Positions 200 to 4,846 of a stretch of DNA of 4,846 nucleotides are shown here, one piece after another. A model generated the notes under the pieces. It worked only from the letters and a program-made list of their open reading frames with translations. It made no database searches and was not told the origin of the DNA. The position numbers and the translations under genes were made by a program. The DNA comes from a virus (taxonomy: Duplodnaviria > Heunggongvirae > Uroviricota > Caudoviricetes): the IMG/VR virus record IMGVR_UViG_2713896779_000029, one strand, 5' to 3'. Numbering within the stretch: position 1 is the stretch's first letter; each line of letters opens with the position of its first letter.

Positions 200-547
200 A
201 TGAAAAAAGTATTAATCGCAGCCCTTTTTTCCTGCGTGTCTTTTGGCGTTTTTGCACAACAGGGAGGTTTTCTGGGGTCTGAAGCAGAGCGTTCAACAAC
301 AGTAGTGCAGGCAAAAGAACAGAAGGACGAGGCATGGGTTATCCTTGAAGGGCACATCGTTAAAAAATTGGGTGATGATCGTTATGAGTTTCGCGACAGT
401 AGCGGAACCATTGTCACGGATATCGATGAAAGTGTATGGGCCGGGCAGAATGTGTCTCCGGAAGATAAGGTAATAATCGAGGGTGAACTTGATAAAGACC
501 TGAACAGTGTTGAACTGGATGTAAAAACGCTGAAATTATTAAAGTAA
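200..547 (+). CDS. YgiW/YdeI-family (BOF, bacterial OB-fold, DUF388-like) secreted protein
   Basis: ATG at 200 preceded by AGGA-containing RBS (gaggacgataATG); stop TAA 545-547. N-terminal signal peptide MKKVLIAALFSCVSFGVFA followed by QQGGF. Conserved family pattern W-V-x-L-x-G-x-I-V, DD-x-Y-x-F-x-D-x-SG-x-I, DID, GE-x-DKD-x-NSVE-x-DV matches my recollection of E. coli YgiW. Confidence 0.9.
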   Translation: MKKVLIAALFSCVSFGVFAQQGGFLGSEAERSTTVVQAKEQKDEAWVILEGHIVKKLGDDRYEFRDSSGTIVTDIDESVWAGQNVSPEDKVIIEGELDKDLNSVELDVKTLKLLK

Positions 548-900: not shown

Positions 901-950
901 NNNNNNNNNNNNNNNNNNNNNNNNNNNNNNNNNNNNNNNNNNNNNNNNNN
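901..950. other. Assembly gap / masked segment (50 N)
   Basis: Run of exactly 50 N; true length and content unknown. Confidence 1.
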
Positions 951-957
951 AGGTAAT

Positions 958-2007
958 GTGCGGGTATTACTTCGACCTGTTCTGGTTCCGGAACTCGGGC
1001 TGGTGGTCCTTACGCCCGGTCGTGAATCACTGCCGGTTTTTCATTGCGGCAGGGTGCTGGTGGAGCCGGAACCGAAAAACATGCGGGCGCTGCCATCCGG
1101 AGCGGTTCCCACTGTTCGCCAGCCGCTGGTGGAAGACAAATCATTACTGCCATTTTTCAGTGATGAGCGGGTAAACCGTGCTGCGGGTGGCGCTGGTGCA
1201 CTGTCTGACTGGTTATTACGTCACGTGAAATCCTGCCAGTGGCCACACGGTGATTATCATCATAGCGAAACCGTCATTCACCGTTACGGTACCGGCGCGA
1301 TGGTGTTGTGCTGGCACTGCGACAACCAGCTGCGGGAGCAGACATCTGATTCACTGGAGCAACTTGCTCAGCAGAATCTGGCTGCCTGGATGATTGACGT
1401 CATCCGTCATGCAATGAATGGCACGCAGGAGCGGGAACTGTCGCTGGCAGAGTTATGCTGGTGGGCGGTTTGTCATCAGGTGGCTGATGCAATTCCGGAG
1501 TCTGTATTGCGTCGTTCGCTGGGATTACCGGTGGAAAAAATCCGCTCCGTATACAGTGAGAGCGACATCGTACCGGGAGAGCAGACCGCCACCAGCATAC
1601 TGAAGCAGCGGACAAAAAACATAGCGCCACCGCTTCACGCCCACCAGCCACAAACCACGCCACAGGAAAAGACGGTAGTAAGCATCGCCGTTGATCCGGA
1701 GTCCCCGGAATCTTTCATGAAACGGCCTAAACGTCGTCGCTGGGTTAATGAAAAGTACACGCGCTGGGTAAAGACACAGCCGTGCGTGTGTTGTGGTAAA
1801 CCAGCCGACGATCCCCATCACCTGATTGGCCATGGGCAGGGCGGTATGGGGACAAAATCCCACGATATTTTCACACTACCGTTGTGCCGGGAGCACCACA
1901 ACGAACTTCATGCTGACCCGCTGGAGTTTGAGAAAAAGTACGGGTCCCAGGTTGAGTTGATTTTTCATTTTCTTGATCACGCCTTTGCGACTGGCGTGCT
2001 TGGGTAA
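958..2007 (+). CDS. DUF968-like (YdfU-like) prophage protein with C-terminal HNH-like Cys/His motif; putative NinG-position nuclease. 5' boundary uncertain because of the adjacent gap
   Basis: 349-codon open frame starting at GTG 958, open upstream to the gap edge, stop TAA 2005-2007. C-terminal region KRPKRRRW...CVCCGKPADDPHHLIGHGQGG...CREHHNELH resembles the metal-binding HNH-like signature I associate with DUF968 proteins of lambdoid prophages. Sits immediately upstream of rusA and Q, as ydfU does next to the Q-like gene in the Qin prophage. Confidence 0.75.
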   Translation: MRVLLRPVLVPELGLVVLTPGRESLPVFHCGRVLVEPEPKNMRALPSGAVPTVRQPLVEDKSLLPFFSDERVNRAAGGAGALSDWLLRHVKSCQWPHGDYHHSETVIHRYGTGAMVLCWHCDNQLREQTSDSLEQLAQQNLAAWMIDVIRHAMNGTQERELSLAELCWWAVCHQVADAIPESVLRRSLGLPVEKIRSVYSESDIVPGEQTATSILKQRTKNIAPPLHAHQPQTTPQEKTVVSIAVDPESPESFMKRPKRRRWVNEKYTRWVKTQPCVCCGKPADDPHHLIGHGQGGMGTKSHDIFTLPLCREHHNELHADPLEFEKKYGSQVELIFHFLDHAFATGVLG

Positions 2008-2019
2008 AAGAGGTGACTG

Positions 2020-2476
2020 ATGCCTATAGATTTGGTTTTACCTTACCCGCCAACGGTGAACACCTACTGGCGTCGTCGTGGCAGTACATATTTTATCTCG
2101 GAGGAGGGAAAGCGTTATCGCCGGGCAGTGGCGCTTATTGTTCGCCAGCAGCGGCTGAAATTAAGCCTGTCCGGAAGGCTGGCGATAAANNNNNNNNNNN
2201 NNNNNNNNNNNNNNNNNNNNNNNNNNNNNNNNNNNNNNNAAATTAAGCCTGTCCGGAAGGCTGGCGATAAAGGTGATTGCAGAGCCACCGGATAAGCGCC
2301 GTCGCGACCTGGACAATATTCTGAAAGCACCGCTGGATGCGCTGACGCATGCGGGAGTGCTCATTGATGACGAGCAGTTTGATGAAATCAATATTGTACG
2401 TGGTCAGCCAGTATCTGGTGGACGACTGGGTGTGAAGATTTACCAAATAACGCATGAAGGACAGGCCCAAAAATGA
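2020..2476 (+). CDS. rusA: RusA-family Holliday junction resolvase (crossover junction endodeoxyribonuclease), interrupted by an N gap
   Basis: ATG 2020 preceded by aagagg RBS. N-terminal LPYPPTVNTYWRR and C-terminal PDKRRRDLDNILKAPLDALTHAGVLIDDEQ...SGGRLGVKI match RusA hallmarks (LPWPPS, RRRDLDN with catalytic Asp, DALT, DD, GGRL). Removing the N run plus one copy of the flanking 32-bp repeat joins the two halves in frame to give about 124 aa. Confidence 0.85.
2158..2271. repeat. Perfect 32-bp direct repeat (2158-2189 and 2240-2271) flanking a 50-N gap; probable unmerged contig-end overlap
   Basis: aaattaagcctgtccggaaggctggcgataaa occurs identically on both sides of N run 2190-2239. Confidence 0.8.
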
Positions 2477-3294
2477 AACTGGAAGATTTACCGAAGTACT
2501 ATTCACCAAAATCCCCCGGCCTGACAGATGCCTCTGCCTCGACGTCAAAAGATGCGCTGAGTATCACTGATGTGATGGCAGCGCAGGGCATGACACAGAA
2601 TCGGGCTGAGATGGGGTTTTCTGCGTTCCTTGGGAAAATGGGCATTAGTATGAATGACAGAGAGCGGGCAACAGAATTGCTGACAGAATATGCACTCAGT
2701 CGGTGTGATTGCGTGGCGGCGTTAAGAAAACTCCCGGCAGAAATAAAACCGGCAGTGATGCGCATTATGGCTTCGTATGCGTTTGAAGATTATGCCCGTA
2801 GCGCGGCGAGCAAAAAACAGTGCCCCTGCTGTCACGGAAAAAAATTTATTGAAAGCGAGGTTTTTACAAACAAGATCCAGTATCCGGATGGTAAGCCGCC
2901 AGTATGGGCAAAGTGCACAAAAGGCGTGTATCCGTCTTACTGGGAGGAATGGAAAAAAGTCAGGGAGGTGGTAAAAGTTGCCTGTCCGGAGTGTGGCGGA
3001 AAGGGGGAGGTTTCCACAGCCTGTAAAGATTGTCGTGGGCGCGGTGTTGCCATTCATCGTGAAGAGTCGGAAAAACAGGGTGTGCCGGTTTTCAGAAACT
3101 GTCAGCGTTGTGGTGGGCGTGGCTATGAAAGATTACCTTCAACGGAGGCATTTAATGCCATATGTAATGTAACCGATGCCATATCTCTTGATACATGGAA
3201 AAAAACAGTTAAACGTTTTTACGATACGCTGGTGGTGCAGTTTGATATTGAAGAAGCATGGGCAGAACAACAACTGAAAAAGGTGACCAGATAG
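2473..3294 (+). CDS. Q: Late-gene antiterminator Q (lambda Q family) with expanded zinc-binding region
   Basis: ATG 2473 overlaps the rusA stop (ATGA at 2473-2476); stop TAG 3292-3294. Blocks shared with lambda Q as I recall it: SPKSP, TDVMAA-GM, F/YxDYxRSAA, CxDCxGxG, CxRCxGxGYxRxP, and the C-terminal WxxTVKxxYDxLVVQ...VTR. It is 273 aa against 207 aa for lambda Q. Confidence 0.9.
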   Translation: MKLEDLPKYYSPKSPGLTDASASTSKDALSITDVMAAQGMTQNRAEMGFSAFLGKMGISMNDRERATELLTEYALSRCDCVAALRKLPAEIKPAVMRIMASYAFEDYARSAASKKQCPCCHGKKFIESEVFTNKIQYPDGKPPVWAKCTKGVYPSYWEEWKKVREVVKVACPECGGKGEVSTACKDCRGRGVAIHREESEKQGVPVFRNCQRCGGRGYERLPSTEAFNAICNVTDAISLDTWKKTVKRFYDTLVVQFDIEEAWAEQQLKKVTR

Positions 3295-3299
3295 CTTTG

Positions 3300-3342
3300 T
3301 TGATTTTTCCCGAATCTGTGGTAAATTTCCCCTAACGATGGG
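3300..3342 (+). promoter_or_regulatory. pR'-like late promoter with sigma70-dependent pause element (Q-utilisation region)
   Basis: -35 TTGATT (3300-3305), 16-bp spacer with TG at 3319-3320, -10 TAAATT (3322-3327), then 6 nt, then AACGATGGG (3334-3342). Lambda pR', from memory, has TAAATT-N6-AACGATGGG with identical spacing. Located 6 bp after the Q stop codon. Confidence 0.7.
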
Positions 3343-3376: not shown

Positions 3377-3398
3377 CCCGCCGCCAGGCGGGTTTTTT
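3377..3398 (+). terminator. Rho-independent terminator (tR'-like), about 45-65 nt downstream of the pR' start
   Basis: GC stem cccgcc (3377-3382) and ggcggg (3387-3392), loop gcca, followed by TTTTTT (3393-3398). Confidence 0.8.
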
Positions 3399-3503: not shown

Positions 3504-3553
3504 NNNNNNNNNNNNNNNNNNNNNNNNNNNNNNNNNNNNNNNNNNNNNNNNNN
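3504..3553. other. Assembly gap / masked segment (50 N)
   Basis: Run of exactly 50 N inside the tR'-to-methyltransferase intergenic region. Confidence 1.
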
Positions 3554-3693: not shown

Positions 3694-4752
3694 ATGCTTA
3701 ATACTGTAAAAATATCCAGTTATGAGTTAATCAACGCCGACTGCCTGGAATTTATGCGGTCGTTACCCGAAAATTCTGTTGACCTGATAGTCACGGACCC
3801 GCCGTACTTCAAAGTGAAACCCGCGGACTGGGATAACCAGTGGGTGGGTGATGAAGATTACCTGAAGTGGCTGGACCAGTGCCTTGCGCAGTTCTGGCGG
3901 GTGCTGAAACCAGCCGGAAGTCTTTACCTGTTCTGTGGCCATCGCCTGGCATCTGACACCGAAATCATGATGCGTGAGCGGTTTAACGTACTGAACCATA
4001 TCATCTGGGCAAAGCCGTCCGGACGCTGGAACGGGTGTAACAAGGAAAGCCTGCGGGCGTATTTTCCGGCCACAGAGCGCATTCTGTTCGCGGAACATTA
4101 TCAGGGGCCGTATCGCCCGAAAGATGATGGCTGTGAGGCGAAGGGCAGGGCACTGAAACAGCATGTGATGGCCCCGCTGATTGCTTACTTTCGTGATGCG
4201 CGCGCTGCCCTGGGGATAACGGCAAAACAGATTGCAGATGTCACAGGAAAGAAAAACATGGTGTCGCACTGGTTCAGTGCCAGTCAGTGGCAGCTGCCGA
4301 ACGAAAGCGATTATCTGAAATTACAGGCCCTGTTTGCCCGGGTGGCAGAAGAGAAGCATCAGCGCGGTGAACTGGAATGGCCACACCACCAGCTGGTCAG
4401 TACATACAGTGAACTGAGCCGACAATATGTCAGCCTGCAGGAAGAGTATAAAACCCTGCGGCGTTATTTTTCCGTATCGGCTGCGGTTCCTTATACGGAT
4501 GTGTGGACGCACAAACCCGTACAGTACTATCCCGGGAAACATCCGTGCGAAAAACCGGCAGAAATGCTGCGGCAGATAATCAGTGCGAGCAGTCGTCCGG
4601 GTGACCTGATTGCAGATTTTTTCATGGGGTCAGGTTCAACGGTAAAAGCGGCGCTGTCACTGGGACGTCGGGCGATTGGTGTTGAGCTGGAGACCGGACG
4701 TTTTGAGCAGACAGTCAGGGAAGTTCAGGATTTTATCAGTCAGAACGGATGA
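3694..4752 (+). CDS. DNA methyltransferase, N6-adenine/N4-cytosine type, beta class (motif IV before motif I); orphan, no adjacent restriction endonuclease
   Basis: ATG 3694, stop TGA 4750-4752. N-terminal ELINADCLEFMRSLPENSVDLIVTDPPYF carries catalytic motif IV (DPPY). C-terminal HPCEKPAEMLRQII...GDLIADFFMGSGSTVKAALSLGRRAIGVELE carries motif X plus motif I (FxGxGS/T SAM-binding). About 250 aa between them serves as the target-recognition region. Confidence 0.9.
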   Translation: MLNTVKISSYELINADCLEFMRSLPENSVDLIVTDPPYFKVKPADWDNQWVGDEDYLKWLDQCLAQFWRVLKPAGSLYLFCGHRLASDTEIMMRERFNVLNHIIWAKPSGRWNGCNKESLRAYFPATERILFAEHYQGPYRPKDDGCEAKGRALKQHVMAPLIAYFRDARAALGITAKQIADVTGKKNMVSHWFSASQWQLPNESDYLKLQALFARVAEEKHQRGELEWPHHQLVSTYSELSRQYVSLQEEYKTLRRYFSVSAAVPYTDVWTHKPVQYYPGKHPCEKPAEMLRQIISASSRPGDLIADFFMGSGSTVKAALSLGRRAIGVELETGRFEQTVREVQDFISQNG

Positions 4753-4792
4753 TATTGCAGAATCAGTGACGCACCGTTATTATTCTGCGCCC

Positions 4793-4846
4793 GGCCCTTT
4801 AGCTCAGTGGTGAGAGCGAGCGACTCATAATCGCCAGGTCGCTGGT
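4793..4846 (+). tRNA. tRNA with CAU anticodon, most like tRNA-Ile2 (ileX/ileZ type); 3' part truncated by the window edge
   Basis: ggcccttTAGCTCAGTGGTGAGAGCgagcgaCTCATAAtcgccaggtcgctggt: acceptor stem, D-arm (AGCTCAGTGG-GAGAGC) and anticodon loop CTCATAA with CAT at 4826-4828. Near-identical over the available part to my recollection of E. coli ileX. Elongator tRNA-Met cannot be fully excluded without the complete gene. Confidence 0.8.

What the first reader, a model, noticed from the sequence alone, without database searches (positions are those of the whole stretch)
4793..4846. tRNA-Ile(CAU)-like gene directly downstream of the Q, pR' and methyltransferase block suggests a tRNA/cargo locus beyond the window edge
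In Stx-converting lambdoid phages such as 933W, a tRNA cluster beginning with ileZ lies between Q/pR' and the toxin genes. The partial tRNA here is in the equivalent position and orientation. Whatever follows it is a prime location for late-expressed cargo such as toxin or effector genes.
Basis: partly seen in the sequence, partly recalled or inferred. Interest (0 to 1): 0.5.

Follow-up and report, generated by a model that had tools for sequence, protein, structure and literature searches.

The report
Truncated prophage tRNA-Ile gene, no toxin
The last 54 bases of the window are the start of a well-known phage-borne tRNA gene (first of an Ile-Arg-Arg trio common in E. coli prophages), and in every genome that carries this exact sequence the slot behind the trio holds a broken TerB-like gene rather than a Shiga toxin, so the finding is real but ordinary.

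Summary
Observation confirmed. Window 4793-4846 is the 5' 54 nt of a tRNA with a CAU anticodon, cut by the window end (Rfam 35.3 bits against a cut-off of 29). It is 89% identical to E. coli K-12 ileX and 76/76 identical to the tRNA upstream of stx2 in Stx2a phages.

The window is four draft-assembly contigs joined by 50-N gaps. All four are 100% identical and colinear to one degraded, IS-ridden lambdoid prophage of E. coli O121:H19 (ST655 lineage L1).

In all ten genomic places shown that carry the exact methylase, the order is: tRNA(CAU), tRNA-Arg(UCG), tRNA-Arg(UCU), a terminator hairpin, a TerB-family gene (internal stop in the O121 loci; intact in the one place with a different prophage backbone), DUF3927, a NanS-p-type esterase, then the holin. 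There is no stx.

The Stx2a phage of this lineage sits at argW. It shares only the last 205 nt of the window.

The toxin expectation fails. The trio occurs at 7588 places in 3061 of 5426 complete E. coli genomes, and tRNAs plus stx2AB occur in only 594 genomes.

Verdict: already known, low interest.

The parts
4793..4846 (+). First 54 nt of a 76-nt tRNA(CAU) gene of the ileX/ileZ type (acceptor 5' strand, D arm, anticodon arm with CAT at 4826-4828, variable loop, start of the T stem), cut by the end of the contig and window
   Evidence: Rfam RF00005, 35.3 bits, 3'-truncated. The full gene is called in identical genomes. 68/76 identical to K-12 ileX, against 54/78 for metT and 49/78 for metZ.
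3694..4752 (+). DNA N6/N4 methyltransferase gene (352 aa), ending 40 nt upstream of the tRNA
   Evidence: PF01555, E = 4.3e-43. The exact protein is found in 533 collection blocks, and every place shown has the same downstream context.
2473..3294 (+). Late-gene antiterminator Q (273 aa)
   Evidence: PF03589, E = 3.3e-51. Annotated as antitermination protein in RefSeq.
3300..3342 (+). lambda-like late promoter pR' candidate: -35 TTGATT 3300-3305, -10 TAAATT 3322-3327, pause-type element AACGATGGG 3334-3342
   Evidence: The same TAAATT-N6-AACGATGGG arrangement is present in phage lambda just downstream of Q. The generic promoter scan missed it, at 8 of 12 consensus matches. Function is inferred, not shown.
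3377..3398 (+). tR'-like intrinsic terminator (CCCGCC-GCCA-GGCGGG plus T6) about 50 nt downstream of the pR' candidate
   Evidence: Terminator scan at L002 15279-15294, mapped to the window by the offset; sequence read.
901..950 (.). 50-N scaffold gap (replaces 34 nt of the reference)
2190..2239 (.). 50-N scaffold gap inside rusA. The 32 nt on either side are the same sequence (contig-end overlap).
3504..3553 (.). 50-N scaffold gap replacing 224 nt of the reference (a 65-aa ORF plus a terminator-like hairpin)
958..2007 (+). DUF968 (YdfU-like) gene of the nin-region-equivalent block
   Evidence: PF06147, E = 3e-78
2020..2476 (+). RusA Holliday-junction resolvase gene, interrupted in the window by the second N gap
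   Evidence: RefSeq annotation L002 14004-14378, mapped with the offsets
200..547 (+). YgiW/YdeI (BOF) OB-fold protein gene. The 3' end of a hok/gef gene lies at 1-82.
   Evidence: PF04076, E = 3e-30; annotation

Best explanation
The fragment is the 5' two-thirds of a prophage-borne tRNA-Ile2-type gene, the gene called ileZ in Stx-phage annotation. Its anticodon is CAU, presumably converted to lysidine-AU by host TilS so that it reads AUA.

It is the first gene of the standard lambdoid trio tRNA-Ile(CAU), tRNA-Arg(UCG), tRNA-Arg(UCU). The trio lies in the late operon downstream of Q, pR', tR' and a DNA methyltransferase, and upstream of the lysis genes.

The window belongs to a degraded, IS-riddled, non-Stx lambdoid prophage of E. 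coli O121:H19 lineage L1. The contig stops inside the tRNA because that tRNA is an exact repeat shared with other prophages of the same genome, including its Stx2a phage.

Likely mechanism (inferred). After induction, Q-modified RNA polymerase starting at pR' reads through tR' and the later hairpins. The tRNAs are cut out of the late transcript and add decoding capacity for AUA, AGA/AGG and CGA/CGG. These codons are rare in the host but 2-8 fold more frequent in the prophage genes.

The slot directly behind the trio's terminator is a cassette (moron) site. Here it holds an inactivated TerB-family gene plus DUF3927, followed by nanS-p and the holin. It does not hold a toxin.
For: tRNA call: Rfam 35.3 bits against a cut-off of 29. 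The full 76-nt gene with anticodon CAT is found in all continuing loci.

Ile2 rather than Met: 68/76 identical to K-12 ileX, including a compensated U6-A67 in place of C6-G67 and conserved C4 and C5. The figures for metT and metZ are 54/78 and 49/78. RefSeq annotates it as tRNA-Ile.

Locus identity: all four window pieces are 100% identical and colinear with NZ_CP028110.1 1298868-1303789 and seven other O121:H19 chromosomes.

Downstream content: tRNA-Ile, tRNA-Arg, tRNA-Arg, TerB pseudogene (internal stop), DUF3927, SASA esterase, class II holin. The same order appears in all 10 places shown that hold the exact methylase. The 4.1 kb downstream is 99.2-100% identical among the nine O121 loci.

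Not the Stx phage: the L1 Stx2a phage is at argW. Its sequence, LC616037, matches only window 4642-4846 at 90.7%.

Repeat explains the break: the last 62 nt of the window are exact in that phage, its tRNA is 76/76 identical, and RM8352 has 7 places matching the cluster.

Inside the prophage: the integrase lies about 18 kb upstream, and the tail genes and effector locus lie downstream.

Codon bias: ATA, AGA, AGG, CGA and CGG occur at 7.2, 7.0, 4.9, 4.5 and 14.0 per 1000 codons in 31 prophage genes, against 2.9, 0.9, 0.8, 2.3 and 5.7 in 24 flanking host genes.

Late-operon wiring: Q, a lambda-like pR' motif, terminator hairpins after pR', after the 65-aa ORF and after the third tRNA, and no sigma-70-like promoter found between the methylase and the tRNAs.

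Cassette slot: the homology breakpoints with an Stx2a phage flank stx2AB on one side and TerB/DUF3927 on the other.
Against: The window holds only 54 nt of the tRNA and nothing downstream. Everything beyond 4846 is read from other, identical genomes, not from the source assembly.

Because the tRNA is an exact repeat shared with the Stx2a phage of the lineage, a short-read assembly cannot by itself say which path follows.

Lysidine modification, isoleucine charging, transcription from pR' and any benefit from codon supply were not and cannot be tested with these tools.

ARAGORN and some GenBank records label the gene tRNA-Met.

The prophage is defective: the portal gene is truncated by IS600, IS3-family elements sit in the lysis cassette, and Q is itself interrupted by IS in some strains. 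The tRNAs may therefore rarely or never be expressed from this copy.

The codon comparison uses a small local host gene sample, not the whole genome.
Confidence: 0.88

Rival explanations
1. The source genome differs from the complete O121:H19 references. Beyond the contig break the window joins the stx2AB path, so the window is part of an Stx-converting prophage.
For: The tRNA and the 8 nt before it are exact repeats shared with the lineage's Stx2a phage, so the short-read graph is ambiguous at this point. Recombination between lambdoid prophages at such shared segments is well known (own knowledge). Related Q-methylase blocks at 91-95% identity do precede stx2 in other Stx2a phages such as Stx2_EH1910.
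Against: All 8 complete genomes with 100% identical DNA link the methylase to the TerB/DUF3927/nanS-p path, and so do all 10 places shown that hold the exact methylase protein. No phage record in the collection carries this methylase at more than 91.4% identity. The L1 Stx2a phage has an unrelated methylase and Q region, apart from the last 205 nt.
Confidence: 0.04
2. The gene is an elongator tRNA-Met rather than a tRNA-Ile2. It would add AUG-decoding capacity, not AUA.
For: ARAGORN labels it tRNA-Met from the CAT anticodon. Several GenBank phage records and some RefSeq genomes annotate it as tRNA-Met.
Against: It is 89% identical to K-12 ileX and only 63-69% identical to K-12 metT, metU and metZ. 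It keeps C4 and C5, which pair with G69 and G68 in the full gene; I recall these as the TilS discrimination pairs (Ikeuchi et al. 2005, own knowledge, not checked here). NCBI's PGAP annotation calls it tRNA-Ile in most genomes. AUA is enriched in the prophage genes and strongly in stx2A, with 15 AUA in 319 codons.
Confidence: 0.05
3. In this particular prophage the tRNA trio is an intact but functionally idle relic. The element is too decayed to run a late programme, so the tRNAs do nothing measurable and persist only by hitch-hiking or by gene conversion with other copies.
For: The portal gene is truncated, and terminase and head genes are missing. IS elements sit in the lysis cassette, and in Q in some strains. 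The TerB cargo carries an internal stop. No independent promoter was found in front of the tRNAs. Six other places in the same genome also match the tRNA-cluster query.
Against: The tRNA sequence is perfectly conserved, 76/76 with the Stx2a phage copy. Q, pR' and the methylase are intact in most strains. Q supplied in trans from other prophages could still drive pR' (inference). This rival concerns current activity, not what the feature is.
Confidence: 0.25
4. The tRNA is a host gene at the prophage boundary, an attachment site, rather than phage cargo.
For: Many prophages and islands integrate into tRNA genes. According to the O121 paper, ileX and ileY are integration sites for SpLE1-like elements.
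Against: The gene lies in the middle of the prophage, between the methylase and the lysis genes. The integrase and excisionase lie about 18 kb to the left. The tail genes, the effector locus and the real boundary tRNA-Ser lie about 29 kb to the right. It differs from chromosomal ileX at 8 positions.
Confidence: 0.01

Closest known systems
ileZ-argN-argO tRNA cluster of Stx2 phages (933W, Sp5/VT2-Sakai and relatives; Schmidt et al. 1997 and Plunkett et al. 1999, from my own knowledge; annotated as 'ileZ: tRNA-Ile' in AP012536/AP012537)
   Same: The first tRNA is identical, 76/76 with Stx2_EH1910 and with the O121 Stx2a phage Stx2_4151. The trio has the same order and anticodons, CAU, UCG and UCU. 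The position downstream of Q, pR' and the methylase is the same. The same terminator hairpin follows the third tRNA.
   Different: The cassette behind the trio is a TerB pseudogene plus DUF3927 instead of stx2AB. The Q and methylase alleles differ from those of the lineage's short-tailed Stx2a phage. The host prophage is defective.
E. coli chromosomal ileX/ileY (tRNA-Ile2, lysidine-CAU)
   Same: 68/76 identical. It has the same anticodon loop (CUCAUAA), the same C4 and C5, and the same length and cloverleaf.
   Different: There are eight substitutions, including the compensated 6-67 pair and changes at positions 27/28 and 43/44 of the anticodon stem. The gene is carried on a prophage inside the late operon rather than as a stand-alone chromosomal gene next to rpoD-mug.
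Non-Stx lambdoid prophages of E. coli carrying the trio followed by TerB/DUF3927/nanS-p (for example in O157, O104:H4 and many commensals)
   Same: The arrangement of tRNAs, TerB-family gene, DUF3927 and SASA esterase is the same. It covers at least 80% of the query in 737 of 5426 complete genomes. An intact 143-aa TerB version is seen in L011.
   Different: Here the TerB gene has an internal stop, and the lysis cassette further downstream is broken by IS elements.
Phage lambda late-operon control region (Q, pR', 6S RNA, tR')
   Same: The Q gene is followed directly by a promoter with -10 TAAATT, a 6-nt spacer and AACGATGGG, then a hairpin terminator.
   Different: Lambda has no methylase, tRNAs or cassette between tR' and the holin S. 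Here about 5 kb is inserted between them.

Membership tests
tRNA (Rfam RF00005) | Score at or above the family's gathering threshold for sequence plus cloverleaf structure | tested here: met
   35.3 bits against 29 for the 3'-truncated match at 4793-4846. ARAGORN calls the complete gene in 13 continuing loci.
tRNA-Ile2 (CAU/lysidine; ileX, ileY, phage ileZ) | CAU anticodon in a 7-nt loop CUCAUAA | tested here: met
   CAT at window 4826-4828, within the loop CTCATAA.
tRNA-Ile2 (CAU/lysidine; ileX, ileY, phage ileZ) | Body sequence of the Ile2 type rather than the elongator or initiator Met type | tested here: met
   68/76 identical to K-12 ileX, against 54/78 for metT and 49/78 for metZ (alignment).
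   C4 and C5 are in the window. G68 and G69 are in the full gene of the identical genomes. tRNA-Met has T4 and A5 at these positions. The window alone shows only the 5' halves of the pairs.
tRNA-Ile2 (CAU/lysidine; ileX, ileY, phage ileZ) | C34 converted to lysidine and the tRNA charged with isoleucine | not testable with these tools
   This needs biochemical assays or tRNA mass spectrometry.
Lambdoid late-operon tRNA trio (ileZ-argN-argO module) | Located downstream of Q/pR' and upstream of the lysis genes, on the same strand | tested here: met
   Q 2473-3294, pR' motif 3300-3342, methylase 3694-4752 and tRNA from 4793, all on the + strand. The holin lies 3.6 kb further on in identical genomes.
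Lambdoid late-operon tRNA trio (ileZ-argN-argO module) | Followed within about 10-15 nt spacers by tRNA-Arg(UCG) and tRNA-Arg(UCU) | tested here: met
   Seen in all loci that continue the window sequence. It is not visible in the window itself.
Stx-converting prophage | stxA and stxB genes between the tRNA trio and nanS-p or the lysis cassette | tested here: not met
   No stx in the 12 kb downstream in RM8352, nor in any of the 10 contexts of the exact methylase. The slot holds TerB (pseudogene) and DUF3927. The lineage's Stx2a phage is a separate element at argW.
Host tRNA gene used as a prophage attachment site | Lies at the prophage-chromosome junction next to the integrase or at the opposite end | tested here: not met
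   The gene is internal to the prophage. The boundaries lie at potC/integrase and at tRNA-Ser/hyaA.

The most novel reading that the evidence does not exclude
The exact-repeat tRNA trio upstream and the partly conserved nanS-p downstream may act as portable homology arms shared by several prophages of one genome. Recombination between them could move the stx2AB cassette from the argW phage into this defective prophage, or move TerB/DUF3927 the other way. That would create Stx loci that no longer depend on an inducible, complete phage. The data show the shared arms and the alternative cassettes. They show no such exchange in any of the genomes examined.
Probability: 0.1. Interest if true: 0.35.

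Novelty: already known. Interest (0 to 1): 0.08.

Why it matters
It matters little beyond correct annotation.

The tRNA(CAU)-Arg-Arg trio in the late operon of lambdoid prophages has been described since the late 1990s. Here it is found in 3061 of 5426 complete E. coli genomes.

The practical lesson is a caution. The tRNA fragment, and even the whole Q-methylase-tRNA block, does not predict a toxin. The trio is followed by stx2AB in only about one genome in five of those that carry it, and in fewer than one in ten of its copies.

Because the tRNA is an exact multi-copy repeat, short-read assemblies break there. Toxin linkage therefore cannot be read from such contigs. For surveillance of O121:H19, this contig should not be taken as part of the Stx2a phage.

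Tried and rejected
1. ARAGORN on the window found nothing because the gene is truncated. Rfam's truncation-aware search was needed.

2. The generic sigma-70 promoter scan found no promoter between Q and the tRNAs. The pR' candidate was recognised only by comparison with lambda, and the global MAFFT alignment did not line up the motif.

3. Literature searches for 'ileZ/argN/argO' returned nothing useful; the library holds no paper with 'ileZ'. The original descriptions are therefore cited from memory. PMC7946995 documents the three tRNAs next to stx2a and the codon-compensation idea.

4. I tried to find the RM8352 Stx2a locus by searching tRNAs plus stx2AB in the E. coli genomes. RM8352 was not among the 60 rows shown. 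I solved this through Table S3 of PMC8767318 and the phage record LC616037.

5. I considered whether the N runs were masking rather than gaps. I rejected this because they replace 34 nt, minus 32 nt (an overlap) and 224 nt of the reference.

6. I considered the tRNA as an attB or host gene and rejected it.

7. I did not use the large protein-database, structure or metagenome tools. Nothing in the question required them.

Full report
**1. The observation**

The last 54 bases of the window (4793-4846, + strand) read GGCCCTTTAGCTCAGTGGTGAGAGCGAGCGACTCATAATCGCCAGGTCGCTGGT. Rfam's tRNA model matches them at model positions 1-52 of 71. The score is 35.3 bits against a gathering score of 29, E = 8.3e-05, and the match is flagged as cut at the 3' end. 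It is the only Rfam match in the window.

ARAGORN reports no tRNA in the window because the gene is incomplete. It does call the complete 76-nt gene, with anticodon CAT at position 34, in every locus that continues this sequence. The anticodon lies at window 4826-4828.

**2. What the window is**

The window is not one continuous sequence. It contains three runs of exactly 50 N, at 901-950, 2190-2239 and 3504-3553.

BLAST against a complete genome shows that these runs replace different amounts of reference sequence:
- The first replaces 34 nt.
- The second corresponds to an overlap of 32 nt; the same 32 nt stand on both sides of the gap.
- The third replaces 224 nt.

The window is therefore a scaffold of four short-read contigs.

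All four pieces are 100% identical to, and in the same order as, one locus in eight complete E. coli O121:H19 chromosomes, for example NZ_CP028110.1 (strain RM8352) 1298868-1303789. These strains belong to ST655 lineage L1 and are stx2a-positive.

**3. The surroundings inside the window**

The genes, in order, are:
- the 3' end of hok/gef at 1-82;
- a YgiW/YdeI OB-fold gene at 200-547;
- a small ORF;
- DUF968 at 958-2007;
- rusA at 2020-2476, split by an N gap;
- antiterminator Q at 2473-3294 (PF03589, E = 3e-51);
- a DNA N6/N4 methyltransferase at 3694-4752 (PF01555, E = 4e-43).

Six bases after the Q stop codon lies a promoter-like sequence: TTGATT-N16-TAAATT-N6-AACGATGGG at 3300-3342. Phage lambda has TTGACT-N17-TAAATT-N6-AACGATGGG at the same place after its Q gene. 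A GC-rich hairpin with a T run (3377-3398) follows, in the manner of tR'.

The generic promoter scan found no sigma-70-type promoter between Q and the tRNAs. Only 40 nt separate the methylase stop codon from the tRNA.

**4. What lies beyond the window edge**

In RM8352 the sequence continues in this order:
- the rest of the tRNA(CAU), annotated tRNA-Ile;
- tRNA-Arg(TCG) 7 nt later;
- tRNA-Arg(TCT) 13 nt after that;
- a strong terminator-like hairpin (AGGCTCGC-TTCG-GCGGGCCT plus T6);
- a TerB-family gene carrying an internal stop;
- a 43-aa DUF3927 ORF;
- a 616-aa SASA/NanS-p-type sialate O-acetylesterase;
- a class II holin;
- a lysis cassette interrupted by two IS3-family elements.

I looked up the exact 352-aa methylase protein across public assemblies. 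It is listed in 533 blocks of the collection, mostly on 5-10 kb contigs, as expected for draft O121 genomes. In all ten places shown it is followed by the same three tRNAs and the TerB/DUF3927/esterase/holin order. None has stx. The 4.1 kb downstream is 99.2-100% identical among the nine O121 loci.

One place, L011, has a different prophage backbone. It carries an intact 143-aa TerB gene and an additional cassette of about 560 nt.

**5. Not the Stx2a phage**

The O121:H19 population-genomics paper places the L1 Stx2a phage at argW. It lists RM8352 among the strains with a 65-kb Stx2a phage there (PMC8767318).

I fetched one of these phages, Stx2_4151 (LC616037). It has its own tRNA(CAT)-Arg(TCG)-Arg(TCT) trio followed by stx2AB (99.2% identical to the Stx2_EH1910 trio-plus-stx2AB segment used as the query). 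It matches the window only over 4642-4846, at 90.7% identity. No record in the phage collection carries the window's methylase piece at more than 91.4% identity.

The prophage that holds the window runs from an integrase next to potC to a tail-fibre and effector end next to tRNA-Ser/hyaA; the effector end carries an EspF-repeat protein gene and an EspV pseudogene. The prophage has lost its terminase and head genes, with the portal gene truncated by IS600. The tRNA lies about 18 kb from the left end and about 29 kb from the right end of this prophage. It is phage cargo, not a flanking host gene.

**6. Why the contig ends in the tRNA**

The tRNA(CAU) of the Stx2a phage is 76/76 identical to the one here. 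The last 62 nt of the window are exact in both elements. RM8352 has seven places matching the tRNA cluster.

An exact repeat shared by several prophages is the usual place for a short-read assembly to break. It also means that the contig by itself cannot show which path follows. Only the complete genomes do that.

**7. Identity of the tRNA**

ARAGORN and some database records call it tRNA-Met because of the CAT anticodon.
- It is 68/76 identical to ileX, with a compensated U6-A67 in place of C6-G67.
- It is 54/78 identical to metT.
- It is 49/78 identical to initiator metZ.

It keeps C4 and C5, which pair with G69 and G68 in the full gene. tRNA-Met has T4 and A5 at these positions. From memory (Ikeuchi et al. 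2005) these pairs are what TilS uses to select tRNA-Ile2 for lysidine formation; I did not verify that paper here.

I conclude that it is an ileX-type tRNA-Ile2, as RefSeq annotates it. The modification and the charging remain inferred.

**8. How it most likely works**

What is shown:
- The trio sits in the late operon behind Q, pR' and tR'.
- No promoter of its own was detected.
- A terminator follows it.

I also counted the codons that these three tRNAs read, in 31 genes of this prophage and in 24 host genes flanking it:

| Codon | Prophage genes (per 1000) | Flanking host genes (per 1000) |
|---|---|---|
| ATA | 7.2 | 2.9 |
| AGA | 7.0 | 0.9 |
| AGG | 4.9 | 0.8 |
| CGA | 4.5 | 2.3 |
| CGG | 14.0 | 5.7 |

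stx2A of a related phage has 15 ATA in 319 codons.

What is inferred: on induction, Q-modified polymerase reads through the terminators, the tRNAs are processed out of the late transcript, and they relieve rare-codon limitation for late genes. This is the standard explanation for phage tRNAs; it is cited in PMC7946995, and I recall it from Plunkett et al. 1999 for 933W.

In this decayed prophage the copy may be largely idle.

**9. The cargo slot**

Homology between this prophage and the Stx2a phage Stx2_EH1910 runs through the methylase, the trio and the terminator. It ends at L002 17166 / L001 11497. It resumes at L002 17899 / L001 12867, 87 nt after stx2B, and continues into nanS-p.

So stx2AB (about 1.4 kb) and TerB/DUF3927 (about 0.7 kb) are alternative cassettes at one site. 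In L011 a further cassette is bracketed by a second copy of the terminator motif.

In this element the cargo is a dead TerB-like gene.

**10. How common it is**

- The 292-nt trio matches 7588 places in 3061 of 5426 complete E. coli genomes.
- The trio plus TerB/DUF3927 is covered at 80% or more in 737 genomes.
- The trio plus stx2AB is covered at 80% or more in 594 genomes.

Most copies of the trio are therefore not next to a toxin.

**11. Verdict**

The feature is a textbook element of lambdoid prophages and is already known. Interest is low. The one caveat is that everything beyond position 4846 is inferred from identical complete genomes, not from the source assembly.

Noticed in passing
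window 901-950, 2190-2239, 3504-3553: Three runs of exactly 50 N. They replace 34 nt, an overlap of 32 nt (the same 32 nt flank the second gap) and 224 nt of the reference. The window is therefore a scaffold of four short-read contigs, not contiguous sequence. ORFs listed across the gaps, such as rusA at 2020-2476, are artefactually split.
   Followed up: yes
window 3300-3342 and 3377-3398: The late promoter candidate has the same TAAATT-N6-AACGATGGG arrangement as lambda pR'. A GC hairpin with a T6 terminator follows. The Q protein here is 273 aa, against 207 aa for lambda Q (624-nt gene).
   Followed up: partly
L002 17131-17166; L001 11462-11497; L011 11362-11395 and 11959-11990; lambda L018 around 975-1000: A terminator tail motif GGCCTTTTTT(G/A)TATC(T/C)GCG marks the cassette junctions after the tRNA trio and again before TerB in L011. 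Lambda's tR' region ends with a similar TTTTTTATATCTGC. This may be a conserved module boundary, or it may be chance.
   Followed up: partly
L011 11396-11958: In a different prophage backbone with the identical methylase, an extra cassette of about 560 nt sits between the tRNA trio and an intact 143-aa TerB gene. It has two small ORFs (74 and 68 aa) with no Pfam match.
   Followed up: partly
L002 17288-17719: The TerB-family gene in the stx-equivalent slot carries an in-frame TAG (read at L002 17424-17426) in the reference O121 locus, and gene callers find only fragmentary TerB ORFs, or none, in the other eight. It is intact in L011.
   Followed up: partly
L002 17042-17118 vs L019 27332-27408: The third tRNA (Arg, anticodon TCT) has A at position 37 in this prophage and G at position 37 in the O121 Stx2a phage (CTTCTAAG against CTTCTGAG). 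This difference in the anticodon loop could affect modification or decoding.
   Followed up: no
L016 15338-18284 and L017 19749-21618 (NZ_CP028110.1 1283337-1333617): The prophage is flanked by potC on the left and by tRNA-Ser/hyaA on the right. These loci are about 150 kb apart in K-12. This suggests a chromosomal inversion or a chimera formed between two prophages. The right end carries an EspF-repeat (TccP-like) effector gene and an EspV pseudogene.
   Followed up: no
L005 7339-9427; L008 7339-9427: In two O121 strains the Q gene of this prophage is itself interrupted by an IS element. IS content in the lysis region varies between strains, which indicates ongoing decay.
   Followed up: no
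annotation of the tRNA across records: The same gene is annotated tRNA-Ile, 'ileZ' or tRNA-Met depending on the pipeline. The tRNA-Met labels appear to follow from the CAT anticodon alone.
   Followed up: yes
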